This document shows, one piece after another, positions 2 through 62,929 of a DNA stretch of 64,000 nt. Each line of letters begins with the position of its first letter. Within the stretch, counting starts at the first letter, position 1. A program made the position numbers and the translations under genes. The DNA lies in the IMG/VR virus record IMGVR_UViG_3300021499_000001. One strand, 5' to 3'. A model generated the notes under the pieces. The model had not been told where the DNA came from. It saw nothing but the letters and a program-made list of their open reading frames with translations, and made no database searches. The DNA is from an uncultured virus (IMG/VR IMGVR_UViG_3300021499_000001). Lineage: Duplodnaviria; Heunggongvirae; Uroviricota; Caudoviricetes.

Positions 2-463
2 TTATCAAGCCAGCGGGTTCATGACTCAGCTGTTAGTGCTGCGGCCGGTTTCGACCCTTACCAATTTTTTGATGGCTTAAATACAGTTTATTTCAGGAAT
101 AAAGGTACCGTTTATGTACGCATGCCACAGAGAACATGGGAGGTATTAATTTTACATAAATATGGTCGGAATTCTTATAGGAATCCGTTTAGCAGACATG
201 TTTATGCTATTGATAATGTTTCAGCAACAGCAGATGTGATTGTTATGGCTCATCTACATCGCAGGGACTACGCCAGCTTCTACTTTGGTGGAAAGCAACG
301 AGTTTGTATAAACCTGCCGGGCTTCAAATATAACGATCCTTATACTCAATCATATTTTGATCAACATGAAGCGCCGTTCCCCGTTGTTGTGTTTGATGAT
401 GATAATAATACAGTGGATGTGTATCCATCACCGGAGGTAGCGCGTTATGTTATTAGCAGTTGA
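2..463 (+). CDS. Calcineurin-like metallophosphoesterase, C-terminal part (5' end outside window)
   Basis: Frame is open from base 2. Contains VLILHKY and ADVIVMAHLH, matching the late His and GHxH-type motifs of the superfamily. Confidence 0.6.
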   Translation, partial: LSSQRVHDSAVSAAAGFDPYQFFDGLNTVYFRNKGTVYVRMPQRTWEVLILHKYGRNSYRNPFSRHVYAIDNVSATADVIVMAHLHRRDYASFYFGGKQRVCINLPGFKYNDPYTQSYFDQHEAPFPVVVFDDDNNTVDVYPSPEVARYVISS

Positions 464-558
464 TTACAATGTTATTCATAAAATTTACAGGTATATGATG
501 CATATAACATTAAATTATAATGAAGTTTTACCAATTGAGGATTTGATAGGAGGTGTAT

Positions 559-948
559 ATGCGAACGAGGCGAGAGGGCAGGTATCTGTTGATACAGGGT
601 ATCGATCCTCCGATAACGAGGGATGATGTATCCGCTGCAACAGCGATCCCGTTACGTCGTTTGTGTGATATTATGCATGTTACTGATGATGGTCGTTCTG
701 CGAAGATTGATTTAAGGTCTGTTGGGTTAGCTGAGTTGCTTGCTATGACGTCATATCTTACCTTGCCATGGGTTCCCGTGGCGATTGATTGGTTCCGTGT
801 TAATATGAAGGCGCGCTCTACATATGCTGTAGGTGTTATATTAGGCCGCGCGGCTTCATATATTCGTAAACAATTAGGCATAACATTAGAGGGGACAGAT
901 GAAGAGAATACAGTACAATCTGAAGAAACGGTTGAGGCCAATCAGTGA
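559..948 (+). CDS. Hypothetical protein
   Basis: ORF with GGAGG at 549-553 before ATG 559. Confidence 0.7.
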   Translation: MRTRREGRYLLIQGIDPPITRDDVSAATAIPLRRLCDIMHVTDDGRSAKIDLRSVGLAELLAMTSYLTLPWVPVAIDWFRVNMKARSTYAVGVILGRAASYIRKQLGITLEGTDEENTVQSEETVEANQ

Positions 949-1339
949 GGGTACGGCTGTTGTTGTTGATCTGCTTATCAGGCCGCAGACAAATTTGTAC
1001 ATTCCGGAGTCTGTGTTTGTATTGCAGTTTGGGCTTGTTTTAAACCCGGGGATCATCAAAAGATTACCATTGGATCTACATGAGGGGGACATAATTTTGC
1101 GGGCTGCATGGAAGGCCGACCTCATACAAACATGTAGTGGTGAATATGTTAAGTCCGCTGATTATGTTGATATAGAAGTGCCAGATGTGCCGGGCTTCAT
1201 CATCAAACCAGATGACTATCTAAAGCTAGTTTATCATAGAGATATTATAGCAATTTTTGATGATGTTGATGATTGGGTAAAATTTGTTAAACATTTAAGC
1301 AAGATGGAGGGAAATTATGGGAATCAGTGTACCAAATAA
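899..1339 (+). CDS. GroES/Cpn10-like protein (possible TTG start at 932)
   Basis: LRPISEGTAVVV..NLYIPES..FGLVLNPG..LDLHEGDIIL..YHRDIIAIF follows the GroES pattern LRPL-V-V / GI-LP / G-V-AVG / VKVGD-V / E-DILAI, with an insertion. Confidence 0.6.
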   Translation: MKRIQYNLKKRLRPISEGTAVVVDLLIRPQTNLYIPESVFVLQFGLVLNPGIIKRLPLDLHEGDIILRAAWKADLIQTCSGEYVKSADYVDIEVPDVPGFIIKPDDYLKLVYHRDIIAIFDDVDDWVKFVKHLSKMEGNYGNQCTK

Positions 1340-1670: not shown

Positions 1671-1671
1671 T

Positions 1672-3083: not shown

Positions 3084-3588
3084 AATATTAGAGGGACTTG
3101 CCAAGTCAGGTAAGGAATTTGTCAGGCGTTTTGGACAGTTCTTGCGTGGTTCACATAATTTGGAGCCGCTGGTTGAGTTACCTGCGAAGGCGTTTAGGAA
3201 GCCGCCGCCTCTCCTTCTGTTCAAGAGATCGGCGGGCTTAATAGAAACGAATATTGTTAAGCCCAAGTTGGTAAGATCTACGGTAAGGCGGTTGGAATAT
3301 GCTATGACCCAGGATGTACTTAAGCGGATGCGTCAGAAGCTTAATTACAAGTTTTTGAAGAATAAGGTCGTACCGTTGACCAAAAATGTAAGAAGGGCGC
3401 GGTTTCGTACATCTTATAAACTTATAAGACCAAAACCGACAGGCAGGCATATACGTGATGTGATGTCTATACAAGGTGCAAGTATTGCTTGGGAGAATTT
3501 ACATAAGCAGTCTTTAAATAAATTAGAGGCAACAAGGGTAGGTTTTAGACCGAGGGTAAGGAGACAATGGATAGGTTCAATCAGTTAA
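3061..3588 (+). CDS. Highly basic (Arg/Lys-rich) hypothetical protein
   Basis: 175-aa ORF overlapping both neighbours; very few acidic residues. Confidence 0.65.
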   Translation: MMIKKQIKILEGLAKSGKEFVRRFGQFLRGSHNLEPLVELPAKAFRKPPPLLLFKRSAGLIETNIVKPKLVRSTVRRLEYAMTQDVLKRMRQKLNYKFLKNKVVPLTKNVRRARFRTSYKLIRPKPTGRHIRDVMSIQGASIAWENLHKQSLNKLEATRVGFRPRVRRQWIGSIS

Positions 3589-4349: not shown

Positions 4350-4693
4350 GAGCATTACGTAGATTAAGGGAAATATATAATAGGCCACAGGTAGCGCCGC
4401 GGAATGTTTATCATTTTGTTGATCCTTTAGCTCATGTTAAGCGGTTACGGTTGTGGAGGGGTCGATTAGTTAACAGTCAAGGCAAAAAGGTTGTTAATAA
4501 GATTTTGCCCTCTATACAGCGCAGGAGGCCGCGGGCTTCAATGGCTTTAAGCCGTAAATTGCTAAGGTTAACCAAACGTAGCTGGATTGGGTCGCGGCTT
4601 AGTCATTTTATGGTTTCAAAGGGGAGGCTTCGTAAGTGGGTTGGTGTATTAAATGTATTGAAGGATGCTATAAGGGTGAGGATGAGATTATGA
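4346..4693 (+). CDS. Highly basic Arg-rich hypothetical protein
   Basis: 115 aa; ATGA overlaps at both ends. Confidence 0.65.
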   Translation: MRALRRLREIYNRPQVAPRNVYHFVDPLAHVKRLRLWRGRLVNSQGKKVVNKILPSIQRRRPRASMALSRKLLRLTKRSWIGSRLSHFMVSKGRLRKWVGVLNVLKDAIRVRMRL

Positions 4694-4833: not shown

Positions 4834-5640
4834 ATGGCCATTGGTAGTATATATTATAGTGGTGGTTACCGCCATATGCCAAGTGCTTTGATAAAGGCTG
4901 GTATGAGAGAGTGGTGGTGGGATGCAACGCATTTTGATCGCGCGGTTGGTATACCACGTCCAGAATTACGTACATTTTGGTGGGAAATTGAATATCCAAG
5001 AAGGATTATCCGTCGTGCAGCTAAGCATGCGCGTCGTGCGTTTCAAACGGTAAGGAAATTATATGGGCCCGGTGCAGTGCCGAAATGGAGACCTTATATT
5101 ATGATGAAGTTTATGAAGCCAATGTGGGATATAGAGCCGGAAGGTTTGCGTGCATTTAGAGGTAAGATATGGGCGGAAGAAATTATAAATTTGCGTTATA
5201 GTAAATATAAACTACCTAATGAATTTGCGGCTGCAGAATATGCCAAAACACGTGCTGCTGCTTTTGCACAAGCAGCAAAGGCTGCGGAGAAAACGACTCG
5301 TGCAAGTGCTGCTGGGGCTGCTGCAAAGGGAGCAGCAGCAGCTTCCCGTGCTGCTGCGCAAGCAGGTGCAACGGGTGCTGCAAAGGGAGTGACAAATAGA
5401 GTAATGAGGAATCGTTTATTGAAACGTATTGCTCAGGGGACATTTAAATTTGCACAGAGCAAAACAGGTGCCTTTACAGCTGCTGTGCTTGGCGGGCTTA
5501 TAGCATTAACCATTGCTGGTGCAAGTTATGTAAGAAGGAATCCATCAGAGATTGCTTTGGCTCAGCTTAGGCAGCGTAGAGCCACGCGTTATCCAAGGGC
5601 GCCTTCTGGTTTGGTGTTTGCACTACATGCAACAAGATAA
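4834..5640 (+). CDS. Basic protein with Ala-rich linker and a C-terminal hydrophobic helix
   Basis: GAGGTG upstream; Ala-rich tract about 5230-5390; AFTAAVLGGLIALTIAGASYV. Confidence 0.75.
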   Translation: MAIGSIYYSGGYRHMPSALIKAGMREWWWDATHFDRAVGIPRPELRTFWWEIEYPRRIIRRAAKHARRAFQTVRKLYGPGAVPKWRPYIMMKFMKPMWDIEPEGLRAFRGKIWAEEIINLRYSKYKLPNEFAAAEYAKTRAAAFAQAAKAAEKTTRASAAGAAAKGAAAASRAAAQAGATGAAKGVTNRVMRNRLLKRIAQGTFKFAQSKTGAFTAAVLGGLIALTIAGASYVRRNPSEIALAQLRQRRATRYPRAPSGLVFALHATR

Positions 5641-5641
5641 T

Positions 5642-8098
5642 ATGGAAGTGAAAAGGTTATCATTAAAAGAGCTAAGTGCTGATGAACTTTTGCGCATACG
5701 CAAATCCGCTTCTTACTTTGTTGAATTGTTCCTGCGTGATCCAACCGATCCGCGCCGGCCTCTAAAACTCTACGATTACCAGCGTGAGGTCTTAGATTAT
5801 CCCGGTAAAAAGGTTGTTATAAGAGGTGGTCGTGGTGTCAGTAAAACAACAATGATGGCATGGAAGGCATTGCACCGTGCCTTCACAATACCAAGGCATG
5901 TTATTATTTATTTAGCCCAATCGGAGACGATGCTGCTCAGATTTTTTACTGATTATCTTGATCGTTTTATTACGGATTCGCCTCTAAGTAAATCAAAGGT
6001 TGCCTACCGTAAGCAACCTCAGTATGAGATTGTATTAAGTAATGAGTCAAAAATTTTGGGGTTTGTTGGTAATTCTACGCAGACGATCAGAGGCCCGCGG
6101 GCTGGTACTATTCTTATCGATGAATGTTTTCACGGTATGACGAAGGTTTTAACACAGCGCGGGCTTACCCCTATCAGCCGTGTTAGAGATGGTGATTATG
6201 TTCTTGATGCTGATAGCAAATGGGTGCGTGTTGTTCGCGCTGCGATGACGGGTGTTAAGGAAATGTGGGTTATTGAGCTACCTATATCAGATGAAAAGTT
6301 AGTTGTTACATCTAATCATCCTGTTTTAACAAAGGATTCAGGATTTCAGCCTCTTGATACAGTTGATGAGATACCGATTAGTTGTCGTTATTATGAGCCT
6401 TTTGAGTATCCTAAGGAAGCGGCGCTGGCGCTTATTTATGCACGGTATATAAGCGAACGTGAATCACTTGTATTTAATAATGAAGGTGTGCGGCTTATTA
6501 TGTCTGGTTATCCCAGATTCCGCACATTTTATGAGCGTTTCACGGCGGGCAGACATATTAATCCTGTTCTTATTGAGAAGGATTTTATAGATGGAAAAAT
6601 CGATCAGCGTCTTTTTGTGTATTATTTAGCCGCGTTTGTTAATAGATTTCCTAAGATTGTCATCGATTATCTGACAGGGTTGGGTTATAAGGTTATAGCG
6701 GGTTCGCTGGCTAGTGACGATGTACCTAGATATGAAAAGGAGATAGGTTTCCCATTTTTTGAGTCAGGATGGTCAACAATTGTGAAATTAGCTGATAAGT
6801 TGAATCGTGATCCTGTTGAGTTATATAAGGAGATGAATTGGTACAATACAGGCATATTTGTTCCTTATAAGAAGAAATCCACCATTAGGGCGGCGGCTTA
6901 TAACCTTACTACCGAATCGGGGACTTATTGTGTCTTTATTGGTGGATTCCGCATCCCCGTCCATAATTGTGATTATATACCTGAGCGTAAGTTTGTAGAG
7001 GTGTTTGGTACGACAATGTCAATGGAGGATGTCGTTATATGGTTATCATCTACACCCAGTCCTAAGAGAGGTTATTTTTGGCGTGCGTGTAATGATGAAC
7101 GCATGGGATTCAAGGAGTTTCATTTACCAAGTTGGTTACATCCGACGTGGACATGGATGAAGGATGCTGAGAGGTTGGGCATACCTATCGAAGAGACAAC
7201 AGAATATCAAACTCGTGTTGAGTTTCCTAACCAAGCTGACTGGTTGCGTGAAATAGCTGCTGAGTTTGTTGATCTTGAGGAGAGTGCTATACCATCAAAA
7301 TATATAGATGAAGCATTTCAGCGTTATGATGGTGAGGTGAGTAGGAAGCGCGGCTTCCGCATTCTTGGTGTTGATTGGAATGCGATGGCAGCAGGTGTTG
7401 TTATGGTATTAGTAGAATACGATAATAAAAATAATGTATTTAGGGTTATCCATTCGGAAACGATTTCTAATGTTGAGTATCATCACCAGAAGGCATTGCA
7501 GCGTATTGTTGAGATGGTTAAACAATACCGCATTGATGCTATTGCAGCTGATTGGGGTTATGGAGAGAGTGATATACAGCAGCTCCAACTTATTGGTAGA
7601 GCTAAAGGGATCCGCGCGCTTACTGACATTATGGCCGTAAAGTTTAATGAGAAGATGAAAATACCGCTTTTCTCTGGTGGTTATGATGAATGTTATGCCA
7701 AGGAGTACCTTATGCGGTTGGTCAGGAAATTGTTTGAAATGGGTGCTATCATGCTGCCTCCATCAGAGGATGAAAGATTGCCTGAGAATTATGCTGATGC
7801 TACGAATATGTTAGGATATCAGTTACGTAATTTGCGTGCAAAGGTAACGGGGACAGGTCATCTTACATATGTTGTTGAACCAGACCATAAATTTGCTGCA
7901 TTTTTGGCTGCTGTCTATGGATTTTATAGGACGTTCCAACCGCGTATAGATCCGGTGCAGGGGCTTATTATTTATAATGATTTAGAACGGCAAGAACAGA
8001 AGTTGGATCATGTTCCTAGTATAACATTACAGCCGAAGAAGACACAGCGGTTTGTCCATAGAGTTACAAATAGGTATAAGCCAATAAGAACTGTATGA
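5642..8098 (+). CDS. terL: Terminase large subunit, intein-containing
   Basis: LYDYQ adenine-binding motif, Walker A GGRGVSKTT, Walker B TILIDE, coupling motif SSTP, RNase H-like nuclease ILGVDWN and PDH. ATG 5642 follows the upstream stop. 818-aa precursor, 537 aa after splicing. Confidence 0.93.
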   Translation: MEVKRLSLKELSADELLRIRKSASYFVELFLRDPTDPRRPLKLYDYQREVLDYPGKKVVIRGGRGVSKTTMMAWKALHRAFTIPRHVIIYLAQSETMLLRFFTDYLDRFITDSPLSKSKVAYRKQPQYEIVLSNESKILGFVGNSTQTIRGPRAGTILIDECFHGMTKVLTQRGLTPISRVRDGDYVLDADSKWVRVVRAAMTGVKEMWVIELPISDEKLVVTSNHPVLTKDSGFQPLDTVDEIPISCRYYEPFEYPKEAALALIYARYISERESLVFNNEGVRLIMSGYPRFRTFYERFTAGRHINPVLIEKDFIDGKIDQRLFVYYLAAFVNRFPKIVIDYLTGLGYKVIAGSLASDDVPRYEKEIGFPFFESGWSTIVKLADKLNRDPVELYKEMNWYNTGIFVPYKKKSTIRAAAYNLTTESGTYCVFIGGFRIPVHNCDYIPERKFVEVFGTTMSMEDVVIWLSSTPSPKRGYFWRACNDERMGFKEFHLPSWLHPTWTWMKDAERLGIPIEETTEYQTRVEFPNQADWLREIAAEFVDLEESAIPSKYIDEAFQRYDGEVSRKRGFRILGVDWNAMAAGVVMVLVEYDNKNNVFRVIHSETISNVEYHHQKALQRIVEMVKQYRIDAIAADWGYGESDIQQLQLIGRAKGIRALTDIMAVKFNEKMKIPLFSGGYDECYAKEYLMRLVRKLFEMGAIMLPPSEDERLPENYADATNMLGYQLRNLRAKVTGTGHLTYVVEPDHKFAAFLAAVYGFYRTFQPRIDPVQGLIIYNDLERQEQKLDHVPSITLQPKKTQRFVHRVTNRYKPIRTV
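6125..6967 (+). mobile_element. Intein (281 aa) in terminase, directly after the Walker B glutamate
   Basis: IDE|CFHGMTKVLT, block B VTSNHPVLT, C-terminus AYNLTTESGTY..IPVHN|CDY. No intact LAGLIDADG motif recognisable. Confidence 0.92.
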
Positions 8099-11605: not shown

Positions 11606-14018
11606 ATTGCTTAAGCAGTTATTGCAGCGTCTTGCAGGCAGGGACTTGAATGCGGAGGCGCTATCTAGTATTACTGCTGAGCTGCCTCGTGCGACGGTGC
11701 ATACGGTTAAGTATATGGATCCGAACAGAAGTATTATTTATGATGAACCGCCGCGGCCTCGCAACGCTGTTATGATTCATCCACATTTTGATATGCACCA
11801 GTTAGCACAAATCTATGATTCTGTAGCGGGCGACCGGCCTATAATAGTTAAATTCAGAGATGATATAACTGTAACAACACATGCTTTTTTATTTTCATGG
11901 ATGGGTAGTCTGTTTGGTATAAGGGATGAACATCCATATGAGGTTGTTTACCCTGATGATCTAGAAACGATCGTACCTATATCAAGCGATGGGTTTGTGT
12001 TTACAGGGACCTTTAGACCTGTAAAAAAGCTTATCCGTCATGCTGTTGATAAGGATTTGGTTATGTTCCGTAGTACATTAGGTGAAACGGTGGTAACAAA
12101 AGATCATTCTTTAGTATTTATAGATGGTAGTACTGGTACTGTGGATGATGTTGAAAAGAAGGTGCCCGGTATTGTTGCATATGTAAAAGACGTATCATTT
12201 TCTAAGGCAATAACGTACAAGCATTCGACGAGCACATTTTTAGGATTTGCACGCAATAGAGTTGTTGTACATGCACCATCTCTGGCTGAATTTGTGAAGT
12301 TTATGATTGTATTATTTGAGCATGGTGATTATGGTGTTTTTCATGACCAGCTGGGATGGCGGCTTCCTGTCTGCCCATTTTTAATAAGGTTAATTGATGA
12401 TAATAATTATCAGGTTACATATGATGATGAATATGTCTTTGTGCCAAATGATAGTGCATTAGGAGAGGTTCTTTCCTATTTGTTGCCATTTGGGTTAGAT
12501 GCATTGCCAAGATGGTTCTTTGATGAAAAGTTTATTAATGTTGCTATATCAATCTTTTATAATGAATGGGAGGGGTATTTAAGGAGTCATACACCATTAA
12601 TTGCATCATATATATCATTTTTATTAAGGTATAAAGGTGTACAATTTGCGTTAAATTATAATGAGAATGGTTATAAATTCATGGATATACGCAATTTTGA
12701 GATTCCTATTATTTATTCAGATATACAGGTGTTGCCATATATGAGTGATGATCCATATGTTTATGATGTATCCGTTGAGGGCGAGGTTTTTGTAGATCCT
12801 GTTGGATTTTTAACATTACATAATACAGAGGCTATTGTCCGCCGCGGGATTGAGGAGTATGTTATTCGTATCCCATGGCATGAGGTTGAGGTTATTAGTG
12901 ATAGCATAAAAGCTAAAAATCATTTATTGCGGCGGCTTCAAATTATGAGGCGCCGCTTCGACTGTGACCTATTAGGTGAATTTTCGCAGTCATTTATAAG
13001 ACAGTTATTGTTATTTGGTAATGTTTTTATCAGGATTGTATATTCACGTGAAACCTATGAAGGCCGCAAGCTGCCACTCTATCCTGAATTGCTCTATCCT
13101 CCTGATGTAGCTATAATGTATGATATAAAGAGAGATAAAATTATTGGGTATACATATGATCGTTACGTATTTAAACCTGAACGCATTATTCATGTGACCT
13201 TAGCAAAGTTTCCTGGGTATTTTTATGGAAATTCTATCCTATCTGCGACTGTGGAGGATGTTAAGGTTCTCAGGTTATTGGAACAGCAAGCAGAGATTAT
13301 GTCTGTTTTGTATTCGTCACCACAGATATTTTTGAAGGTTGGTACCCCGACGATACCAGCCGGGCGGCCTCCTAATGATCTTTTAGATAGACCGATGATG
13401 ATTGATGCATTAACAGAGGAAGATTTAGCACGTGAGGGGCGCCGGCTTGAGGGTTCGGAGCCTCATTCACTAAAAATTATTCCATATTATGATGAGCCTG
13501 TAGCTATATCACCAGAGGCACCGATTGATTTGGAGCCGTTCTTGAAGCATTTTAAGAATCGTGTTTATCAAGCGCTTGGGATCGATCCTGTTATATTAGG
13601 TGATCCCCAAGGGTCAAATAGAGATACATCTGTTATTGGTGAATCGGCGACAAATAAACGCATTGAATATATAGCACGTCTTTGGCAGAGACACATTAAT
13701 TTCATTATAAATGATATATTTATGAGTGAGGTACCTTATACAGAGCCCGTTTATGTACATTTACCAAAAATTGATACAACGGATTACATGGCACGTATAA
13801 GATTAGGGTTGAACTTGTATCAAAATGGTATAATTACCAATGACGAAATGCGTCGTTTGTATCTTGGTTATGATCCGTTGAGTGATGATGAGCTTGCGAG
13901 AACCATTTTTGGTTTAACGGGGCGCTTAGTAATTAACACAAATGAAATTGAGTCTCAGTTAAGCCCCGAGAATCAATATGGGAGGCAGATGGCGCCTCCT
14001 AAGGTGAAGAGGAGGTGA
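11598..14018 (+). CDS. Portal protein, intein-containing
   Basis: Position before the protease; QLLLFGNVFIRI, FKPERIIHV, FYGNSIL, ALGIDPVILG and GIITNDEMRRLYLGYDPL are typical portal motifs. 471 aa after splicing. Confidence 0.9.
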   Translation: MNRLLKQLLQRLAGRDLNAEALSSITAELPRATVHTVKYMDPNRSIIYDEPPRPRNAVMIHPHFDMHQLAQIYDSVAGDRPIIVKFRDDITVTTHAFLFSWMGSLFGIRDEHPYEVVYPDDLETIVPISSDGFVFTGTFRPVKKLIRHAVDKDLVMFRSTLGETVVTKDHSLVFIDGSTGTVDDVEKKVPGIVAYVKDVSFSKAITYKHSTSTFLGFARNRVVVHAPSLAEFVKFMIVLFEHGDYGVFHDQLGWRLPVCPFLIRLIDDNNYQVTYDDEYVFVPNDSALGEVLSYLLPFGLDALPRWFFDEKFINVAISIFYNEWEGYLRSHTPLIASYISFLLRYKGVQFALNYNENGYKFMDIRNFEIPIIYSDIQVLPYMSDDPYVYDVSVEGEVFVDPVGFLTLHNTEAIVRRGIEEYVIRIPWHEVEVISDSIKAKNHLLRRLQIMRRRFDCDLLGEFSQSFIRQLLLFGNVFIRIVYSRETYEGRKLPLYPELLYPPDVAIMYDIKRDKIIGYTYDRYVFKPERIIHVTLAKFPGYFYGNSILSATVEDVKVLRLLEQQAEIMSVLYSSPQIFLKVGTPTIPAGRPPNDLLDRPMMIDALTEEDLAREGRRLEGSEPHSLKIIPYYDEPVAISPEAPIDLEPFLKHFKNRVYQALGIDPVILGDPQGSNRDTSVIGESATNKRIEYIARLWQRHINFIINDIFMSEVPYTEPVYVHLPKIDTTDYMARIRLGLNLYQNGIITNDEMRRLYLGYDPLSDDELARTIFGLTGRLVINTNEIESQLSPENQYGRQMAPPKVKRR
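11820..12824 (+). mobile_element. Intein (335 aa) in portal protein
   Basis: QIYD|SVAGDRPIIV, block B VTKDHSL, C-terminus YVYDVSVEGEVFVDPVGFLTLHN|TEA (Ser1, Thr+1). Central endonuclease region looks degenerate. Confidence 0.92.
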
Positions 14019-18114: not shown

Positions 18115-18172
18115 AGGCCCGGTCTTCTAGCTCGTTAGACATTGTGATTCTTGTGGCTAGAAGGCCGGGCTT
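18115..18172. terminator. 17-bp stem-loop after the major capsid gene (terminator, attenuator or RNA stabiliser)
   Basis: AGGCCCGGTCTTCTAGC (18115-18131) pairs with GCTAGAAGGCCGGGCTT (18156-18172), two G-U pairs, 24-nt loop, no long U tract. Confidence 0.6.
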
Positions 18173-18189
18173 CCTATAGGAGGACTATT

Positions 18190-42691: not shown

Positions 42692-42855
42692 AAATTATAG
42701 TTAGAGTACTGCCAAATGCAGATATTGTTCGTGTTGAAGCGGCGATACGTAATGCTTTGATGGCATATGATTTAGATGTGCGGTCAATACAAGTGGTAAC
42801 AACGGCTTTTGGACAGGAGGAGTATGCCAGAGGACTCGAAAAAGCCGAGGCTTGA
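42688..42855 (+). CDS. Small hypothetical protein (55 aa, not in ORF track)
   Basis: ATGA-coupled to the 2355-aa gene, AAGGTG upstream; MKIIVRVLPNADIVRVEAAIRNALMAYDLDVRSIQVV... Confidence 0.6.
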   Translation: MKIIVRVLPNADIVRVEAAIRNALMAYDLDVRSIQVVTTAFGQEEYARGLEKAEA

Positions 42856-52766: not shown

Positions 52767-53245
52767 TGGTGGATTTGCACATAAATCATTTAGGATTGCT
52801 TAGTGATGATGTTTTTATCGATACTGATAAGAATGAGTATCTTGCTGATTTTATTGCATTTTTGCTGCGCACCACCCCAGGAAGTATTGATATTTATCCA
52901 GAACTAGGTGTTGGTGTTTATGATATGATCGGTGAATTCTGGTCAAAGGAGAAGAAAAAGCACATTACATTAGCTATAAAGAGAAAGCTTAATGATCTGC
53001 CTCAGATAGGAAACAGGGTTGCCCGTATTACTGTGTCAAGGGTTATAGAAAAGGGTGATACTTATTTATTCATTGGTATAACGCTTATTACTGGTGAGCG
53101 ATATTTTTACACATTAGTTATGAATGAGCATGGGTTGAGATTATCAAAAGGGGGTAGGGATGAGGTATATGATGAGTATGTAGAAATGTTGGCAAAAGTG
53201 GAGTTTAAAGATGAAGATTTCAATAGCATTATGGAGCTATTATGA
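52766..53245 (+). CDS. Baseplate wedge protein, gp25/GpW-like
   Basis: LLRTTPGSIDIYPELGVGVYDMIGE; precedes the J-like gene. Confidence 0.75.
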   Translation: MVDLHINHLGLLSDDVFIDTDKNEYLADFIAFLLRTTPGSIDIYPELGVGVYDMIGEFWSKEKKKHITLAIKRKLNDLPQIGNRVARITVSRVIEKGDTYLFIGITLITGERYFYTLVMNEHGLRLSKGGRDEVYDEYVEMLAKVEFKDEDFNSIMELL

Positions 53246-56694: not shown

Positions 56695-58320
56695 ATGAGA
56701 AGTGCTGGTTATTTAAATATAGCGGCCTATTTTGATGCGGTACCGAATAGGGAGCTAAAACAAGCGGAAATATCATATTTGTGGAAGCGTATTGGTGGTG
56801 CACCTCTGACACTTCATTATATGTCGCTGAATCGCATATTGATGGCGTTCTTGATGAAGGATTTCGATGTTATTAATTACCGTTTTCCATTTAGAGTTGA
56901 TGGATTATCATTATTCGCTTATAGGAAAAGAGGTGGTGATTGGAAATATAAAGTATATGGGGATATTGAAGCCGCCGCCTCCCTTATAGACAAATATGAG
57001 GAGGGCGATGACTATCCATTCTTTCCTGTAAGAACGGAGACCTCATACATGATTGTACCTTATCCGGGGTATGAGATTCTTTATATTGGTGATAATAGTC
57101 AAGAACTTTTTGAAGCGCCGGCTCCATCGACAGATAGATTAGTTTATTCAGCATTGTATTGGGCCTTGTTATATGCTGATGATTATGGGTATTTACCTAA
57201 GTCAATTGAGGAGCATATTATTAACTGTTTGTTAAAGAGACCAACGACGATGGCGGGCTTCGAACCCTATGCTTATGATGTGGCTGAATATGATGTTAAT
57301 ATGGGTTCCTATCCTCTTATGACTGGAGCCCGTGTTGCGTATCCTGATAAGGATTTTAGTATTGATGCATCTAAGCCGGCGCCCGGCTTATGCTTCGGTC
57401 TGGAGGTGGATGACATAGAGGTTGATGCTGAGGATTATCGTTTTGTTATGACCGACGGCGGCTTCATCATAGGCGGCCGCTTCCTACACACAGGGTTATA
57501 TGATGTTTATGTTTATGATATTTCTAAGTATGAGTGGGATGATGGAGCAGGTACATGGATACCAGTTGGGCCATATGAGGAGCCGATAGATTTAAAGTTA
57601 TCAGTTCCTCTTTCGTTTCCACATCTTATTTTCGCTTTCGAAAAACCGTACATGTTCTCTCATCATTATGGTCGTATTGACCCAACGCCTGGTGATAGCT
57701 TTGAAGTACCATTTATAGATCCTCCGTTGCCTTATTCATTGGAGGGGGCCTATACGCCTTATTCTGGTTCATACCATGATGCTGTGTATGGTAACCCAAC
57801 TGTTTTGGATGAATATCTTTTGAAATGTGTCGATCCAGATAGTCCTGAGCGTTACAGTTATTCGATTCTTGATACGGATCTTATTAGGATACATCATTGT
57901 GGATACAGGACATACATTTATATATTTATTTTGCGACATGATGAGTTGCAAAAATTAAATAAAAGTGTTGATAGTGTTAAATATGATGTTTTAGACGGAC
58001 TAACATTAGGGATTGTTGGCATTGATGATGACTTTTCAGATACTACCATAGAAATCAGAGGTAATCCTGATCCATTGTATTTACCATCTAGTTATGAGTG
58101 GTTGACGTTAAAGGTAAAAGAGGATGGTGTATTTTTAGATGCTATTGTTGTTAAAGCATATGATGATTCAGATAATCGTATTGTAATGCATCATGCCAAT
58201 CTTGCTCCTGATTACGGTACATCTGATGTCTATCCTATTATGACAACATGGTTTGGGTATGCTTTAGTAGGTGTTGAAGATAGTTCACGTATTGATCATT
58301 TTGTGGTTGAAAAGATTTAA
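56695..58320 (+). CDS. Baseplate/fibre-region protein (Tyr/Asp-rich)
   Basis: 541-aa ORF; synteny only. Confidence 0.5.
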   Translation: MRSAGYLNIAAYFDAVPNRELKQAEISYLWKRIGGAPLTLHYMSLNRILMAFLMKDFDVINYRFPFRVDGLSLFAYRKRGGDWKYKVYGDIEAAASLIDKYEEGDDYPFFPVRTETSYMIVPYPGYEILYIGDNSQELFEAPAPSTDRLVYSALYWALLYADDYGYLPKSIEEHIINCLLKRPTTMAGFEPYAYDVAEYDVNMGSYPLMTGARVAYPDKDFSIDASKPAPGLCFGLEVDDIEVDAEDYRFVMTDGGFIIGGRFLHTGLYDVYVYDISKYEWDDGAGTWIPVGPYEEPIDLKLSVPLSFPHLIFAFEKPYMFSHHYGRIDPTPGDSFEVPFIDPPLPYSLEGAYTPYSGSYHDAVYGNPTVLDEYLLKCVDPDSPERYSYSILDTDLIRIHHCGYRTYIYIFILRHDELQKLNKSVDSVKYDVLDGLTLGIVGIDDDFSDTTIEIRGNPDPLYLPSSYEWLTLKVKEDGVFLDAIVVKAYDDSDNRIVMHHANLAPDYGTSDVYPIMTTWFGYALVGVEDSSRIDHFVVEKI

Positions 58321-58334: not shown

Positions 58335-58351
58335 AATATTGGAGGATTAAC

Positions 58352-61300
58352 ATGGGTTTCTCAATAATACCATCGGATCATTATATAAAGCCCGGTCGGA
58401 TAACAGCAGCAGATATTAACCGGGCGTTTGATGATATAAATAATAGGCTTGGTGGCTCAAATTATGTTTTACCGCTTCTTGTTGCAGATACCAATATTAT
58501 TTATCTTTCGCGCATTAGTGAATGGGGTCCTGATGATGTTGAAGTACATGTGAGAGATGTGACCCCTTATTCTACTGATCCAGCAACAAGGACAGGTACG
58601 CTAAAGATATTGCCAAGTATTCCTACCGGTAGTTGTGTAAAGGATACCTCCACATGGGAGATTACTATTGAAGGTACGACGATTGGATCTGGGACGTTTG
58701 ATGGAGCAACGCATGAGTTTAGTGGTATAGCTTTATATGGTAAGACGATAACAGTACATTTTCATTTTGATTTTGATGATTCGGTTGGATTTTTAGACGT
58801 AAGGGAGAAGGTTTTATTTAATTTCCAGCTTGCTGTAGAAGCGTTGACTGATGCTACTGATAAGCCCTGGAGTTATTATACAATTGTTGGACGCGCCGAA
58901 CCACTGCCTTCATTTGCGTCTTCATATCCCCATGTGCTTGTCAGATTTGATTCAAGGGTTGTTGAGACAGATGCTACAGGGACGGCTATGGTTACTGGTA
59001 CCGTGTACTTTTCGTGGGGTAGTGATACGACAGGTACACATTGGGAGATCTATAAGGTTATTGATGGTACGGAGACATTAATATCATCAGGAACTGATGC
59101 TATATCAGAAAAAAATTTTAGTTTTAATGTTACTCTTACGGATGAGCGGGAGAAGGAGGTTATTTTAAAGGTTATTCTTGGTAATAGTACATTTCCTAAT
59201 GTGACTTTTACTGATAAGTGTTGGGTGATAACTGATATATCTAATGCTTTACCTCTGATTGAACAGATACCTTCATGTGTTGTTATGCCCCCACTGTGGG
59301 AGTCATTCTATACTGTTGGTTCGAGTACTTATGTCTATACATTCTATCTAACTACATCAGCTACCCATTGGGTTGGTGTTGATGATGATAAGCGCGCGCT
59401 TAAGTTAGATATAGAGAACGACAATTATGAGATCAGGAAAACTGATGGTACATGGGCAACAATCGCTGATGCCGTTGAGAAAGTAATAGCTATTGCCCAT
59501 ACGCGTAATGCTAGTGGTAGCGAAAATATTTATGTATATGATCCTTATACATTAGATAGTTACATCTATGCAGGTGATGGTAACATACCTTCCGGGGAGA
59601 CCTTACTATATGTTGATTTTCTTGTAATGTTATCAAAGCAATATGATTACAGTTACATCAAATCACCCGGCGGTACTTATACCTATAATGACAGTCCTAT
59701 AGAATTTTTATATACAATAGCTGAACATGATACTGGTTTTACAGTTGTAGGTAGCAGGTCACATACGACTCATGTGCATTATTATCCTATTTTGTCATCT
59801 TGTATTGCATTTTTTGATCCTACTAATATCAGCATGGAAAGTGGTGGTGGTGTTAGCACCCTTAGGGCTATTATTTTGAATGCTCCGTTACAGGAAGCCG
59901 ATCTTATAAAATATGGGTTTATTAGCAGTTCTGCATCACCAACGTCGAAAATTGAATATCAGTATGTTATATCATGTCTGGAAGCCCCTGCGGGGATGAC
60001 AGTTGAGATATATGATGATAGTGATAGCGACTGGCATCCTATTACATCAAGTAGTTATACCATTGATATAGGCGAACTTGATGGTGTACCGGCTTATTAC
60101 AGTTTCCCCGTACGTGTTGTTGGTACTACTACAGCTAATATTTTATTTAATGTGGAATTAGTTGCCAAATATCACGATGCGTCGGGTACTGTTTCAACAG
60201 TATTAATAGAGCGCAGACATATAGCATTGGCTACGTTTTTATCTGGGGGCGCGGCGGCTTATGCAACCTCTCTCTCATTACCCCGCACTAATTTCATGGT
60301 TTTTGTTGGTGGATATGGTATGGGTATACCGACGATTGCGAAACCAGATGTTAGTGATATTTACTTAGATAGCAGCACTCATTTGTATTATCTTGGGCTC
60401 ATCGCTCGCGAACCATTGAAAATTGCTTATGGGGACACTATAGAAGATATCATAGGAGGTGAATCAAGACTTGGTGGTGTAACACTAGAGGATATATCAG
60501 CATCCATGCTTGGGTATCGTCTTGATATGGATATTTTATTACCAGCGGGAGTGCTAAAGAGTGAAATCTATGTTGCTTATGATCCATCATCAAAACATAT
60601 CATAATAAGTAGCGAGTTTACAGGTGGTTGTATTCCTATAGGTGTATTAATAATTGAACGTTATGCTGAAACATTGTATCCGTCGTTGAAATTCATCCCC
60701 TATGTACACACGTATGTATATGAGGCAACACGTGGCTTAGAGGTGGGCCGCTTCGGTTTGGTGGACAAGGTTGGGGCAGATAGTCCTGTTATTGTTGCGA
60801 CAACACATTTTGAAAATGCTGATGATTTGACAAATTTGCTTGCGCTTATGAATATTGGTGATAGTTGTTTGCTTATTGGTGAGAATTATGCGAGTAGCGA
60901 TTCCCTGAGATTCCCTTATGTGATGGGTGTAAGGAAGCTTGCGGAGGATAAGGTAAAGCTTACGATGCTTACTGATGTGGGTATGGCAACTGTTTTAATG
61001 GAGAGTGCTAGCAAGTATGTTTATCCAGTATTAGATGTATTTAGAATTTATTATTTGGATGCATCCGGATCTCTACATACAGTCCCACCACCTATGGGGG
61101 CGGTATATACAGGTTCAGCTATAACTGATACCCTTGTGCCATTAGCTGATTTGGGTGACGATCGAAAAATATTAGAAAATATTGGTGAGAAAGTTGTTAT
61201 CATAGTTGAGCCATACATATATGTCGATAAAACTCTTTTACCTGATCCAAATATTAATATTATGAAAATGGAAGTTGTGTGCTCTGGTTCATATTCGATG

Positions 61301-61468
61301 GGTAGTGGAATACTTGTGCGACATTTTATAAGACTTGTTGATGAACATGGTATACATCATATAATGAGTATACCTGTGAAAATCATGTTATTTGGGTCTA
61401 TGTATAATGCTCTTGGTGGTTGGGGTACATCTGGTGGTTCTGGTGGTCCATTTACACCTATAAGCTAA
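58352..61468 (+). CDS. Putative tail fibre/appendage protein (Ser/Thr-rich, beta-rich)
   Basis: 1038 aa; N-terminal GRITAADINRAFDDINNRL is typical of fibre attachment segments. Confidence 0.55.
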   Translation: MGFSIIPSDHYIKPGRITAADINRAFDDINNRLGGSNYVLPLLVADTNIIYLSRISEWGPDDVEVHVRDVTPYSTDPATRTGTLKILPSIPTGSCVKDTSTWEITIEGTTIGSGTFDGATHEFSGIALYGKTITVHFHFDFDDSVGFLDVREKVLFNFQLAVEALTDATDKPWSYYTIVGRAEPLPSFASSYPHVLVRFDSRVVETDATGTAMVTGTVYFSWGSDTTGTHWEIYKVIDGTETLISSGTDAISEKNFSFNVTLTDEREKEVILKVILGNSTFPNVTFTDKCWVITDISNALPLIEQIPSCVVMPPLWESFYTVGSSTYVYTFYLTTSATHWVGVDDDKRALKLDIENDNYEIRKTDGTWATIADAVEKVIAIAHTRNASGSENIYVYDPYTLDSYIYAGDGNIPSGETLLYVDFLVMLSKQYDYSYIKSPGGTYTYNDSPIEFLYTIAEHDTGFTVVGSRSHTTHVHYYPILSSCIAFFDPTNISMESGGGVSTLRAIILNAPLQEADLIKYGFISSSASPTSKIEYQYVISCLEAPAGMTVEIYDDSDSDWHPITSSSYTIDIGELDGVPAYYSFPVRVVGTTTANILFNVELVAKYHDASGTVSTVLIERRHIALATFLSGGAAAYATSLSLPRTNFMVFVGGYGMGIPTIAKPDVSDIYLDSSTHLYYLGLIAREPLKIAYGDTIEDIIGGESRLGGVTLEDISASMLGYRLDMDILLPAGVLKSEIYVAYDPSSKHIIISSEFTGGCIPIGVLIIERYAETLYPSLKFIPYVHTYVYEATRGLEVGRFGLVDKVGADSPVIVATTHFENADDLTNLLALMNIGDSCLLIGENYASSDSLRFPYVMGVRKLAEDKVKLTMLTDVGMATVLMESASKYVYPVLDVFRIYYLDASGSLHTVPPPMGAVYTGSAITDTLVPLADLGDDRKILENIGEKVVIIVEPYIYVDKTLLPDPNINIMKMEVVCSGSYSMGSGILVRHFIRLVDEHGIHHIMSIPVKIMLFGSMYNALGGWGTSGGSGGPFTPIS

Positions 61469-62517
61469 TGTATAAGTATGTTAACATAGATGAAGCCGGT
61501 AGTAATGTTATTCCATTGTTTACGATGCATGGGCATATTATGCCGTGGGTTGTGCATAATGTATTTGCTAGTGAAGAAGGCTATGCTGCAACGGGTTATT
61601 ACCTCCATCCATTTGATGTTGGTGGTATTAAATATTACTTTTATCATGAGCTTCCATCGGTGCCATCTACATTGAATGTTTATAGAATTGATGGGGTACC
61701 ATTGATTGAGCACGTTGATTATGATTTAGTTGGTAATAGGGTTTATCTTGATTGGTATTGGAGGTATGAGTCTATTATTATTGAAGCCGACGGCGTGAAG
61801 TTGGCTGCTGATTGGAGACCATATGAATTGTCAACAGAGCCAGTAGCTGATGCTAAGCGACACCATTTTCTTGTTCCTGTTGGAGATATAATTGAATTTG
61901 ACGGTTCAGAAGCAGGGCTTCACTATTATTATCCGCGCCTTATCCCTAGGAAGGTTTCAATGCCACCTGTTTATTATGATAGGTTTGATTTAGTCTGGAC
62001 ACCGCCTTCTGGTACTATGTTATATGTTAAAGCGAAGCGGAAAAGATTTATAATTTATCAGACAGTACCATACGTAACATTAGATTTGGCGCACTATTAT
62101 ACATGGGATGGTTCTACATATGTTGAACATGATGTTAGTGATGTGTTATATTTTAAAAATACGGGGGAGATAAAATTTGATGATTATGTACCTTATGATG
62201 AAATAAGTTTCAAGGTTGTATCTGTTGATGGGATTGTTATGAACTTAAATATAAATCCTTCGAATCTTGAGTTATTGTCGAGGACCGAATTCATGCCATC
62301 ATTTTTAGTTGGTTATGCCATGGCATCTGATGCATTTCTTGTATCAGTTAGAGGATTTGACCACCGCATTCATTACTATGATTTTGGAGATATTAAGTCT
62401 GAGTTACACGGTATTACTGATGTTTTTTGGTTATGTGAATATAGATTATTAGATCCTCTGAAACGGTTAATGATGGTAAGACATGATGTCCATCGAAGGA
62501 GAGGAGGATATGTATAG
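61468..62517 (+). CDS. Hypothetical structural protein
   Basis: TAATG-coupled start at 61468; PLIEHVDYDLVGNRVY. Confidence 0.6.
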   Translation: MYKYVNIDEAGSNVIPLFTMHGHIMPWVVHNVFASEEGYAATGYYLHPFDVGGIKYYFYHELPSVPSTLNVYRIDGVPLIEHVDYDLVGNRVYLDWYWRYESIIIEADGVKLAADWRPYELSTEPVADAKRHHFLVPVGDIIEFDGSEAGLHYYYPRLIPRKVSMPPVYYDRFDLVWTPPSGTMLYVKAKRKRFIIYQTVPYVTLDLAHYYTWDGSTYVEHDVSDVLYFKNTGEIKFDDYVPYDEISFKVVSVDGIVMNLNINPSNLELLSRTEFMPSFLVGYAMASDAFLVSVRGFDHRIHYYDFGDIKSELHGITDVFWLCEYRLLDPLKRLMMVRHDVHRRRGGYV

Positions 62518-62929
62518 TATTGGTGAGACAGCCATTATACCGGTTTTATTTTTTGATGAGTCATATAGTCTGATGGATCCTGTTGAATTGGAAGGGGAGT
62601 ATGTTACCCTTACGATGTATCGTCTTGATGCAGCACCGTCTGTAGCGAAATTTATTGATAACTTTAAATGGATATACACAGGGGCTGCAGGCTTGTACGA
62701 TCTAGAGGTTGTTGTTGAGGAGAATATACTAAGTGGTGGAGATTATTATATTGGGGCAACGAGATATGATGTGGGTATTTATGCATTAAAGGTTAAGCCG
62801 CGGCTTCCTGGCACTTATTATATTGTTGTAGAGGCTCATGCATCTGGTCTTGCTAGTGAATGTACTTTACAAACCTTTACCGTAAGATTCATAGAGAAGA
62901 GAGATCCATCATTATTATTAATGGAATGA
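62510..62929 (+). CDS. Hypothetical Ig-like beta-sandwich protein
   Basis: GGAGG before ATG 62510; PGTYYIVVEA. Confidence 0.6.
   Translation: MYSIGETAIIPVLFFDESYSLMDPVELEGEYVTLTMYRLDAAPSVAKFIDNFKWIYTGAAGLYDLEVVVEENILSGGDYYIGATRYDVGIYALKVKPRLPGTYYIVVEAHASGLASECTLQTFTVRFIEKRDPSLLLME

What the first reader, a model, noticed from the sequence alone, without database searches (positions are those of the whole stretch)
316..62806. Pervasive frame-independent DNA motif (G/C run + GCTT[A/C]) written into nearly every gene
Seen: in this AT-rich sequence, most long pure G/C runs end in GCTT(A/C) or GCCT(C/A), or begin with the reverse complement (G/T)AAGC. I count roughly a hundred by eye, spaced a few hundred bp apart. 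The G/C core varies in sequence and length while the flank is fixed. Copies fall in all three frames (PGF at 316, AAS at 844, RRL at 12929, GGL at 5491), so codon or amino-acid bias does not explain them. The GCTT-last orientation looks commoner on the coding strand. Inference: a genome-wide cis signal under DNA-level selection. Candidates are a binding site for a genome-coating or condensing protein, a Chi/KOPS-like polar signal, a packaging or ejection signal, or a modification-linked motif comparable to cyanobacterial HIP1. I do not recognise it as a described element.
Basis: partly seen in the sequence, partly recalled or inferred. Interest (0 to 1): 0.88.

Follow-up and report, generated by a model that had tools for sequence, protein, structure and literature searches.

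The report
Selected GC-block word throughout vent phage
An uncultured phage from hydrothermal vents writes a short DNA word (a block of G/C letters followed by GCTT and A or C) into nearly all its genes and keeps it by selection on the DNA itself; the word most likely marks where the phage's own primase starts heat-stable primers, but this is not proven.

Summary
The window holds SSSGCTT[AC] 104 times on the + strand and 37 times on the - strand. Synonymous-codon shuffles give about 12 on each strand; dinucleotide-preserving shuffles give 23 and 13. The word falls in all three reading frames.

The full word is a G/C block of 6-11 bases (mode 7-8) ending in GC, then TT (rarely CT), then A or C. 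A 92%-identical 176-kb relative carries 463 copies genome-wide. Only the composite word is conserved between strains: 14 mismatches against 65-74 expected. GCTTM alone and unflanked G/C runs are not conserved.

Use per synonymously writable site is equal on both strands (18.5% vs 16.7%). Spacing is Poisson-like, and palindromic double sites occur at the chance rate. So neither a polar signal nor a palindrome is supported.

My best reading (about 0.4) is that these are start sites for the phage's DnaG-like primase-helicase. The last three bases (TTA/CTA) match documented DnaG start trinucleotides in the right polarity, and the G/C block would be copied into a heat-stable primer.

No relative outside this species complex shows the word. 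This scan noted the same word before in three windows of other genomes, apparently related phages, with the same guess.

The parts
316..62807 (.). Span holding all 141 copies of the word in the window (104 with the G/C block 5' of GCTT[AC] on the + strand, 37 on the - strand). The full coordinate list is in the Full report section.
316..325 (+).
844..857 (+).
5491..5500 (+).
12929..12939 (+).
368..376 (-). Copy in the opposite orientation ((G/T)AAGC + G/C block on the + strand)
3198..3209 (-). Copy in the opposite orientation
7345..7357 (.). Double copy: one G/C block flanked on both sides (GAAGC...GCTTC), readable on both strands
57372..57390 (.). Double copy on a long G/C block
62794..62807 (.).
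11748..11762 (+). Example of the minor variant: G/C block + GCCT[AC], 5-fold enriched as a class

Best explanation
Shown: the word is a selected, frame-independent DNA element. It is a G/C block of 6-11 bases (mode 7-8) that ends in GC, followed by Y-T-M (TT far commoner than CT; M = A or C). It occurs about 2.6 times per kb on both strands of the whole ~176-kb genome of a vent myovirus whose proteins look heat-adapted.

Inferred: the word marks initiation sites for the phage's own primase, a DnaG-like primase (zinc-binding motif plus Toprim) fused to a DnaB-like helicase. On single-stranded template read 3'->5', the primase would recognise the 3' trinucleotide YT(A/C). As DnaG enzymes do, it would start the primer opposite the middle T, giving pppA. 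It would then copy Y, C, G and the G/C block, producing a primer of about 8-12 nt of the form A-R-G-C-(G/C)n.

In a 38-40% GC genome replicating at roughly 60-70 C, only such primers would stay annealed long enough to be extended. Selection would therefore write G/C blocks next to start trinucleotides on both strands, even changing the order of amino acids to do so.
For: (1) The word is real and selected.
- It is enriched 8.7x and 3.1x over synonymous shuffles and occurs in all three frames.
- The 176-kb relative has 260+203 copies, against 16+10 for the pattern read backwards.
- At 92% DNA identity, the 104 + copies show 14 mismatches in 824 sites against 65-74 expected, and the - copies 8 against 21-25. 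GCTTM without a block (18 vs 13), blocks of only 1-2 S (11 vs 13; 9 vs 12) and unflanked runs >=6 (88 vs 83-105) are not conserved.
- 95 of 103 aligned + copies and 30 of 36 - copies are kept in the relative, against 57% of random 8-mers identical and 100 of 200 kept for control S5WWN words.
- A third strain gives 3 mismatches against 23.4 expected, with controls at 44 against 43.6.

(2) The anatomy fits a primase template.
- The fixed part lies at the 3' end of the block.
- One-off analysis shows the flank is G-C-Y-T-M: GCTTM is 10.6x enriched, GCCTM 5.1x, all other single changes 0.5-2.1x.
- The terminal trinucleotides TTA and CTA are the documented start sites of DnaG from S. aureus, G. stearothermophilus and B. 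anthracis. Synthesis there starts at the middle base and the 3' base is not copied (PMC2978363, section 13 read).
- Block length has a distinct hump at 6-10 on top of a geometric decay: 2:380, 3:142, 4:88, 5:52, 6:74, 7:107, 8:104, 9:62, 10:33. That looks like a ruler of primer size.

- The relative encodes a 781-aa protein with DNAG_N, Toprim and DnaB_C domains. It has conserved Cys/His of a CHC2-type zinc motif (C29, C55, C58 invariant in 7 sequences).
- Its best matches among solved structures are six primase chains (5guj 3e-13, 4e2k 1.5e-12, 1eqn, 3b39, 1dd9, 5vaz), which I recall, not from a call, to be bacterial DnaG.
- RNase H, RNase HII, a ligase and a family B polymerase are also encoded.

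(4) Heat.
- 24 sequencing runs hold part of the stretch, nearly all labelled hydrothermal vent metagenome.
- F(IVYWREL) is 0.428, which a formula I recall from memory converts to about 66 C.
- Aquifex DnaG starts only on G/C trinucleotides, which its authors read as thermoadaptation (PMC2532735, abstract and passages).
- Hypothetical 10-nt primers at the word have a median dG(65 C) of -8.6 kcal/mol, against -2.9 at the other 23,042 YTM sites.

(5) Both strands are served, and protein sequences carry more +-writable sites than amino-acid-shuffled versions: 563 vs 435+-21.
Against: There is no biochemical or read-level evidence; every step from 'selected word' to 'primase' is inference.

- In this window all genes, and presumably the fork, run one way. 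A lagging-strand-only signal should then be used more on one strand. Yet use per writable site is equal, 18.5% vs 16.7%. This has to be excused by forks running both ways, for instance recombination-dependent replication (a RecA/UvsX-like protein and two resolvases are encoded).
- Spacing is Poisson-like in the relative (CV 0.94-1.16). There is no sign of selection against long primer-less gaps. The window's CV of 0.775 was not reproduced.
- TTC and CTC, about half of the copies, are not among the documented DnaG trinucleotides.
- The invariant G-C before YTM is unexplained.
- 76 loci of phages with distant homologues of this primase (23-38% identity) show no comparable word, so the link between this kind of primase and a word is not general.
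- The same guess by earlier agents of this scan is not independent evidence.
Confidence: 0.4

Rival explanations
1. The word is the site of another reader acting on duplex DNA. This could be an unidentified phage or host DNA-binding protein (coating, condensing or heat-protecting) or a base-modifying enzyme. It would recognise GC-YT-M next to a rigid, hard-to-melt G/C block.
For: Use per writable site is equal in both orientations. Spacing is Poisson-like. Density is similar in coding DNA (2.6 per kb) and non-coding DNA (38 copies in 13.1 kb). All of this is what an orientation-blind duplex site predicts. About three quarters of the ORFs have no family match, so an unknown reader is easy to hide.
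Against: No methyltransferase, histone-like or other abundant DNA-binding family was found in the 189 ORFs scanned with Pfam or the 123 scanned with PHROGs. A duplex binder does not explain why the fixed part sits on one side of a block of variable length, nor the hump in block length. Protein sequences were reshaped for + copies only, which points to some strand preference.
Confidence: 0.25
2. The word is a Chi-like signal. Read as single-stranded DNA by the host's RecBCD/AddAB-type nuclease, it would turn degradation of phage DNA ends into protection or recombination.
For: The complement (G/T)AAGC(S)n resembles Firmicute Chi sequences: B. subtilis AGCGG and S. aureus GAAGCGG (passage in PMC11442139). 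The density of one per about 400 bp is similar to that of short Chi words (recalled from memory, not checked). The word is enriched on both strands and is commoner on the G-rich strand.
Against: Chi words have a fixed sequence. Here the block varies in length (6-11) and sequence. The S. aureus heptamer makes up only 39 of 556 KAAGCSS heptamers. There is no orientation preference per writable site. The phage has its own RecA-like recombinase and resolvases. The host is unknown, so the defining test, enrichment and skew in the host genome, could not be run.
Confidence: 0.12
3. The word is not read for any function. It is built and kept by a biased repair or gene-conversion process, like very-short-patch repair, that corrects mismatches towards the word.
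For: Equal use on both strands and Poisson spacing fit a blind, duplex-level process. A UDG-superfamily protein is encoded. Apparent conservation would also follow from such a drive.
Against: One-off neighbours that such a drive should consume are not depleted: GTTTM 0.96x, GCTCM 1.8x, GCTTK 1.4x, ACTTM 1.5x; only TCTTM is low at 0.46x. No Vsr-like endonuclease or cytosine methyltransferase was found. A 10-fold enrichment with reshaped protein sequences is far beyond known repair-driven biases (the comparison is recalled from memory).
Confidence: 0.08
4. The word acts in the RNA, for example as a stabilising or processing signal in mRNA at high temperature.
For: In the relative, 294 of 427 genic copies lie on the sense strand, in both + and - gene blocks. 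Protein sequences were reshaped only for sense copies.
Against: Antisense copies are also enriched (37 vs 12-13) and conserved (8 vs 21-25 mismatches; 30 of 36 kept). They are used as often per writable site. Intergenic copies occur at the same density.
Confidence: 0.05

Closest known systems
Initiation trinucleotides of DnaG-type primases: d(CTA)/d(TTA) in Firmicutes, d(CTG)/d(CTA) in Proteobacteria, d(CCC) in Aquifex aeolicus
   Same: The word ends in a 3' trinucleotide with a central T (TTA, CTA), the site where DnaG primases start. The polarity is the same, so the bases 5' of it on the template are the ones copied. In Aquifex, G/C-only start sites were read as an adaptation to heat (PMC2978363 section 13; PMC2532735 abstract).
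   Different: Known sites are bare trinucleotides defined in vitro. I know of none that is written genome-wide, attached to a 6-11 base G/C block, or conserved site by site. TTC and CTC are not documented start sites. It is not shown that the phage primase reads the word.
Bacteriophage T7 gp4 primase-helicase and its sites 5'-(G/T)(G/T)GTC-3'
   Same: The enzyme is a fused primase-helicase. The site is a fixed 3' trinucleotide plus preferred 5' bases that enter the primer, and flanking bases matter for site choice (PMC12839067, abstract only).
   Different: By sequence the phage enzyme is nearer to chains deposited as DNA primase, which I recall to be bacterial DnaG, than to gp4 (no gp4 hit at E<=0.001). 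T7 primers are 4-5 nt (recalled from memory). The abstract read reports no genome-wide enrichment of T7 sites.
Chi sites (E. coli GCTGGTGG; B. subtilis AGCGG; S. aureus GAAGCGG)
   Same: A short, G/C-rich, over-represented word read on one strand. The complement of the phage word contains AAGC(S)n.
   Different: Chi has a fixed sequence, is a host-genome feature and is strongly oriented. Here the block is variable and use per opportunity is equal on both strands. The S. aureus Chi heptamer is a minor subset, 39 of 556.
HIP1 (GCGATCGC), the highly iterated palindrome of cyanobacteria
   Same: A highly iterated short word written into coding DNA in all frames, at a similar order of density.
   Different: HIP1 is a fixed palindrome of a cellular genome linked to methyltransferases (recalled from memory). 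The phage word is asymmetric and composite, with a variable block and a fixed flank. Palindromic double copies occur only at the chance rate, and no methyltransferase was found.

Membership tests
DnaG-type primase initiation site | Template trinucleotide with a central pyrimidine (T) where synthesis starts, and a 3' base that is not copied | tested here: met
   The flank is G-C-Y-T-M. TTA and CTA are documented DnaG start sites. TTC and CTC are not documented.
DnaG-type primase initiation site | A cognate primase with a zinc-binding domain and a Toprim catalytic core is present | tested here: met
   781-aa protein in the 176-kb relative with DNAG_N, Toprim and DnaB_C domains, a conserved Cys/His zinc motif, and best solved-structure matches to chains deposited as DNA primase; that these are bacterial DnaG is recalled. 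The gene lies outside the window.
DnaG-type primase initiation site | Primers are actually made from the site | not testable with these tools
   Needs an in vitro priming assay or mapping of RNA-DNA junctions.
DnaG-type primase initiation site | Preference for the lagging-strand template | tested here: inconclusive
   Raw counts favour the sense, G-rich strand (104:37; 294:133), and proteins were reshaped for that strand only. But use per writable site is equal, and the fork direction is unknown.
Chi (RecBCD/AddAB hotspot) | Fixed sequence of 5-8 bases | tested here: not met
   The block varies in length (6-11) and sequence. GAAGCGG makes up 39 of 556 heptamers.
Chi (RecBCD/AddAB hotspot) | Over-represented and oriented in the host chromosome | not testable with these tools
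   The host was not identified. The single genome-contig scan gave only a 28%-identical TnpB in Runella.
HIP1-like iterated palindrome | Palindromic word | tested here: not met
   The word is asymmetric. Blocks flanked on both sides number 46 against 50 expected by independence.
HIP1-like iterated palindrome | Cognate DNA methyltransferase | tested here: not met
   None found among 189 ORFs (Pfam) or 123 ORFs (PHROGs). Many ORFs have no family, so absence is not proven.
Polar architecture signals (KOPS and the like) | Strong strand skew tied to replication direction | tested here: not met
   18.5% vs 16.7% of writable sites are used on the two strands.
Repair-driven word (VSP-like) | Depletion of the one-transition neighbours that are converted into the word | tested here: not met
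   Neighbours stand at 0.96-1.8x of the shuffle expectation; only TCTTM is low at 0.46x.

The most novel reading that the evidence does not exclude
A phage of a hot, AT-rich niche has written its primase's grammar into its whole genome. About 460 'GC-clamped' start sites, each a G/C block plus a DnaG-type trinucleotide, are kept site by site and bought partly with changes in protein sequence. The reason would be that short RNA primers otherwise melt off at growth temperature. If so, primer stability would be a hidden constraint on genome composition at high temperature, and primase specificity could be read directly from a genome sequence.
Probability: 0.38. Interest if true: 0.85.

Novelty: new variant of a known kind. 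Interest (0 to 1): 0.8.

Why it matters
Genome-wide selected words such as Chi, uptake sequences, KOPS and HIP1 are few, and each opened a mechanism. This one has an unusual build, a G/C block of variable length with a fixed one-sided flank. It sits in a phage rather than a cell, and it is strong enough to reshape codon choice and amino-acid order across about 190 genes.

If the primase reading holds, it would be the first case I know of in which replication priming sites are under visible genome-wide selection. It would give a testable rule for how AT-rich genomes replicate at high temperature.

It could be used to recognise this phage lineage, to tell long-resident genes from recently acquired ones within it, and as bait to fish out the protein that reads it.

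Tried and rejected
- Whole genome of the window: not held. I used the 92%-identical IMG/VR contig G002 instead.
- blastn of 8 kb against the INPHARED phage collection: no match.
- Host search with the phage TnpB in genome contigs: only a 28%-identical hit in Runella. That used the only scan, so the word could not be counted in any candidate host genome.
- Relatives of a virus record cannot be drawn.
- Distant relatives: 76 loci with primase homologues (23-38% identity) and 76 loci with homologues of the 494-aa capsid-like protein (25-34% identity) show no G/C-block word of any kind.
- A relative at 39% identity (P0013, on a 111,781-bp contig) is not in viral contigs, so I could not read it.
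- Scans for the 14-base double word. 
- Regular spacing: the window's + copies looked slightly even (CV 0.775 vs 0.984+-0.091). The orthologous arm of the relative does not (0.94), nor does any other arm. Rejected.
- Cooperative palindromes: rejected.
- Sequencing runs: no RNA holder is listed, and all 24 holders are kept as contigs. Read starts, nicks or modification signals therefore could not be examined.
- The zinc-domain beta4 residues that set DnaG specificity could not be mapped onto the phage protein with confidence.
- tRNAs: none found.
- A run of seven ~110-aa ORFs in the relative is not evidently paralogous.
- Literature searches for a described phage word of this kind found nothing. 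That covers only the open-access library searched.


Full report
WHAT THE WINDOW IS. The 64-kb window is the structural arm of a large tailed phage. It has about 40% GC and a strong positive GC skew. All long ORFs lie on the + strand. Family matches identify terminase (5552-8098), portal (11598-14018), tail sheath (21148-24432) and baseplate J (53242-54336), plus four giant ORFs (29793-52176).

No whole genome is held for the window, and the INPHARED phage collection has no match. IMG/VR holds close relatives. One of them, a 175,796-bp contig rated 100% complete (handle G002), aligns to the window over its positions 95,025-158,908 at about 92% DNA identity. Twenty-four public runs hold part of the stretch, nearly all labelled hydrothermal vent metagenome. 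The predicted proteome of G002 has F(IVYWREL) = 0.428, which a relation I recall from memory converts to about 66 C.

Of 274 maximal G/C runs of 6 or more bases, 84 are followed by ..GCTTA or ..GCTTC, and 32 are preceded by the complement. SSSGCTT[AC] occurs 104 times on + and 37 on -. The same block followed by GCTT[GT], GCAA, GCTA or GCAT occurs 10-22 times.

Background models give far lower counts:
- Synonymous-codon shuffles within genes: 11.9+-3.5 and 12.1+-3.1.
- Third-base shuffles that also keep dinucleotides: 22.6+-4.0 and 13.4+-2.8. No shuffle of either kind reached 37.
- Markov chains of order 1 and 3: 7/7 and 18/15. Order 5 (78/32) largely contains the word already.

The copies fall in all three frames, 25/28/51. 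Total G/C runs >=6 number 274 against 168+-11 in shuffles, and the excess equals the number of flanked runs. A GCTTM or GCCTM flank is present on 49% of runs >=6, 70% of runs >=8 and 84% of runs >=10.

G002 carries 260+203 copies across the whole genome, against 16+10 for the pattern read backwards. Density is 2.6 per kb in genes and 38 copies in 13.1 kb of intergenic DNA.

ANATOMY OF THE WORD.
- Block length. In G002 the length of the G/C block (counting its final GC) before TT[AC] decays geometrically from 2 to 5 (380, 142, 88, 52). It then rises to a separate hump: 6:74, 7:107, 8:104, 9:62, 10:33, 11:18.
- Block content. The block has no fixed sequence, but it favours CG/GC steps (1.3x) over GG (0.67x) and CC (0.81x). 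GGGG or CCCC occurs in 13% of flanked blocks against 26% of unflanked runs. The base before GCTT is G in 317 of 409 copies.
- Flank. Of all single changes to GCTT, only GCCT is itself enriched (5.1x; GCTT 10.6x; the rest 0.5-2.1x). The flank is therefore G-C-Y-T-(A/C).

SELECTION ACTS ON THE DNA WORD ITSELF. Comparing the window with G002, the eight positions of the 104 + copies carry 14 mismatches against 65-74 expected from codon position and base. The ten positions upstream of the word diverge as expected. The - copies carry 8 against 21-25.

The parts of the word are not conserved:
- GCTTM without a block: 18 vs 13.
- Blocks of one or two S: 11 vs 13 and 9 vs 12.
- Unflanked runs >=6: 88 vs 83-105.

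95 of 103 aligned + copies and 30 of 36 - copies keep the pattern. By comparison, 57% of random 8-mers are identical, and 100 of 200 control S5WWN words are kept. A third strain (L003, 7.2% diverged) gives 3 vs 23.4 and 2 vs 6.4, with controls at 44 vs 43.6. L003 and G002 may share history, so this is not a fully independent replicate.

Real proteins also offer more places where the + word can be written synonymously than the same proteins with shuffled residue order: 563 vs 435+-21, and 251 vs 170+-15 for the 10-base form. This does not hold for the - word (215 vs 204+-14).

ORIENTATION, SPACING AND PALINDROMES. Raw counts favour the coding strand: 104:37 in the window, and 294:133 over 187 crude gene calls in G002, for both + and - genes. 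But the + word can be written synonymously at 563 places and the - word at 215, and the fractions used are the same: 18.5% vs 16.7%, or 25.5% vs 27.3% for the 10-base form. So the strand bias in counts is mostly coding opportunity. Only the amino-acid-level excess hints at a real preference for the sense strand.

Spacing of + copies in the window looked slightly even (CV 0.775 vs 0.984+-0.091). This is not reproduced in the orthologous arm of G002 (0.94) or in any other arm (0.96-1.16).

Blocks flanked on both sides, the 14-base palindrome-like form, number 46 against 50 expected if the two flanks are independent.

WHO ELSE HAS THE WORD. Only this species complex, as far as I could sample.
- Four IMG/VR contig sets at 92-96% identity are word-dense.
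- 76 loci with distant homologues of the primase-helicase (23-38% identity) show no comparable word.
- 76 loci with homologues of the 494-aa capsid-like protein (25-34% identity) show none either.
- The one intermediate relative seen, P0013 at 39% identity, could not be read.

The host was not identified, so the word could not be counted in a host genome.

CANDIDATE READERS. Pfam on 189 ORFs and PHROGs on 123 ORFs found no DNA methyltransferase, Vsr-like nuclease or abundant DNA-binding family. Most ORFs match nothing.

G002 does encode a replication set:
- a 781-aa DnaG-like primase fused to a DnaB-like helicase
- a family B polymerase
- RNase H and RNase HII
- a ligase with a LigD phosphoesterase-like domain
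- a RecA/UvsX-like protein, a helicase and two resolvases

It also encodes a sigma-factor-like protein and a TnpB.

The primase has conserved Cys/His of a CHC2-type zinc motif. Its closest solved relatives are six chains deposited as 'DNA primase'; I recall, not from a call, that they are bacterial DnaG (E 3e-13 to 1.5e-8). No T7 gp4 hit appeared. Its nearest sequence relatives outside the species complex are at 30% identity or less.

BEST EXPLANATION. DnaG primases bind a template trinucleotide, start at its middle base and copy towards the template's 5' end. Those of S. aureus, G. stearothermophilus and B. anthracis use d(CTA) and d(TTA) (PMC2978363, section 13). That of the hyperthermophile Aquifex uses only G/C trinucleotides, which its authors read as adaptation to heat (PMC2532735, abstract and passages). 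For T7, flanking bases also matter (PMC12839067, abstract only).

The word ends in YT(A/C), with the G/C block on the side that would be copied. Primers would then be A-R-G-C-(G/C)n of about 8-12 nt. At 65 C such 10-mers are computed to be about 5.7 kcal/mol more stable than primers from the other 23,042 YTM sites of this AT-rich genome.

This reading explains the one-sided flank, the free sequence but constrained length of the block, the frame independence, and the need for sites on both strands. It does not explain the invariant GC before YTM, the C alternative at the last position, the equal use of both strands in a one-directional gene block, or the Poisson spacing. I put it at about 0.4.

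RIVALS.
- An unknown duplex reader or modifier: 0.25.
- A Chi-like signal: 0.12. The S. aureus Chi heptamer makes up only 39 of 556 heptamers.
- A repair drive: 0.08. The one-off neighbours it should consume are not depleted.
- An RNA-level signal: 0.05. Antisense and intergenic copies behave like sense copies.

EARLIER NOTES OF THIS SCAN. Searches show that the same word was seen before in three windows of other genomes, apparently related phages (e1-5736401, e1-5736368, e1-5834068). The guess there was also primase, with a suggested Aquificota host. I re-derived the observation and the selection evidence here independently. The primase idea is thus a repeated guess, not independent support. 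The host claim was not tested.

FULL LIST OF COPIES (window coordinates, block plus flank).

+ strand: 316-325 844-857 1189-1198 1929-1938 2472-2482 3230-3240 4527-4539 4593-4601 5491-5500 6157-6167 6427-6434 6490-6497 6888-6900 7348-7357 7612-7622 7960-7967 8277-8289 8465-8472 8752-8761 9408-9415 9640-9648 10392-10400 11109-11117 11431-11442 12358-12366 12929-12939 12949-12959 13918-13928 15034-15044 16545-16552 17734-17741 18163-18173 19522-19529 19755-19765 20064-20077 20409-20418 20667-20676 20981-20991 21396-21403 21488-21496 22277-22286 23189-23200 24097-24109 24636-24649 25701-25714 26166-26173 27142-27150 27560-27569 27801-27810 30145-30153 30565-30575 30901-30912 31456-31465 31814-31821 32039-32047 32123-32133 32796-32809 33403-33415 34878-34885 34922-34932 35822-35832 36124-36134 36962-36969 37344-37352 37618-37628 38002-38014 38111-38123 38247-38255 38587-38594 38823-38831 38884-38891 39289-39296 39689-39697 40009-40018 40728-40736 42295-42304 43271-43283 43543-43550 45049-45058 45517-45525 46296-46308 47647-47655 48719-48727 48825-48834 49430-49438 49879-49888 51076-51088 51432-51440 51450-51457 52755-52763 53872-53883 54833-54843 55038-55050 55359-55368 56358-56365 57252-57261 57375-57390 57456-57465 57472-57483 59392-59402 60089-60096 60245-60261 60745-60754 62797-62807.

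- strand: 368-376 2168-2176 3198-3209 6416-6425 7345-7354 13960-13968 19129-19136 20406-20415 23718-23725 26873-26881 27070-27080 27139-27147 29310-29320 32036-32044 32525-32536 34970-34979 35819-35829 36991-36999 40811-40821 42393-42403 42736-42744 43282-43289 44504-44512 45007-45017 45734-45744 46816-46824 47515-47524 53581-53589 54830-54840 55035-55047 56968-56979 57112-57122 57372-57387 59389-59399 59981-59988 61492-61499 62794-62804.

Noticed in passing
L008:14808-16052 (G002 74,808-76,052, minus strand): The relative carries a TnpB (OrfB_IS605 + Cas12f-like TNB domains). Its gene block, G002 73,760-77,413, has the densest and most one-sided load of the word: 18 sense against 1 antisense copies, 5.2 per kb. 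This suggests the gene is long resident in the phage rather than newly inserted.
   Followed up: partly
G002 55,000-75,000 (L007/L008): This stretch has raised GC (0.44-0.48 against about 0.39 elsewhere). Within it, 64.7-73.2 kb has few copies of the word (0.6-1.5 per kb), while 57.6-62.6 kb has many (5.4 per kb). The word-poor part may be more recently acquired DNA.
   Followed up: no
window 29793-52176: Four consecutive giant ORFs (1943, 2355, 1784 and 1337 aa) have almost no family matches. There is only a weak M23 peptidase signal in 42809-48163 and an endolysin-like region in 48163-52176.
   Followed up: no
window 24767-28733: Three consecutive ORFs (285, 388 and 649 aa) all match the same PHROG family, phrog_9206, annotated major head protein. 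They look like a tandem family.
   Followed up: no
G002 59,372-61,354 (L212), L008:6089-6760, L009:5392-6105: A 660-aa protein combines a DNA ligase OB domain with a LigD 3'-phosphoesterase-like domain. The phage also encodes both RNase H and RNase HII. That is an unusually full kit for handling RNA in DNA.
   Followed up: no
G002 whole record (L005-L013): There are no tRNA genes in a 176-kb phage genome. Gene orientation and GC skew switch together near 27 kb and 93 kb, like two replication arms.
   Followed up: partly
L005:10552-11259 (G002, minus strand): A 235-aa ORF matches a PHROG family annotated as RNA polymerase sigma factor.
   Followed up: no
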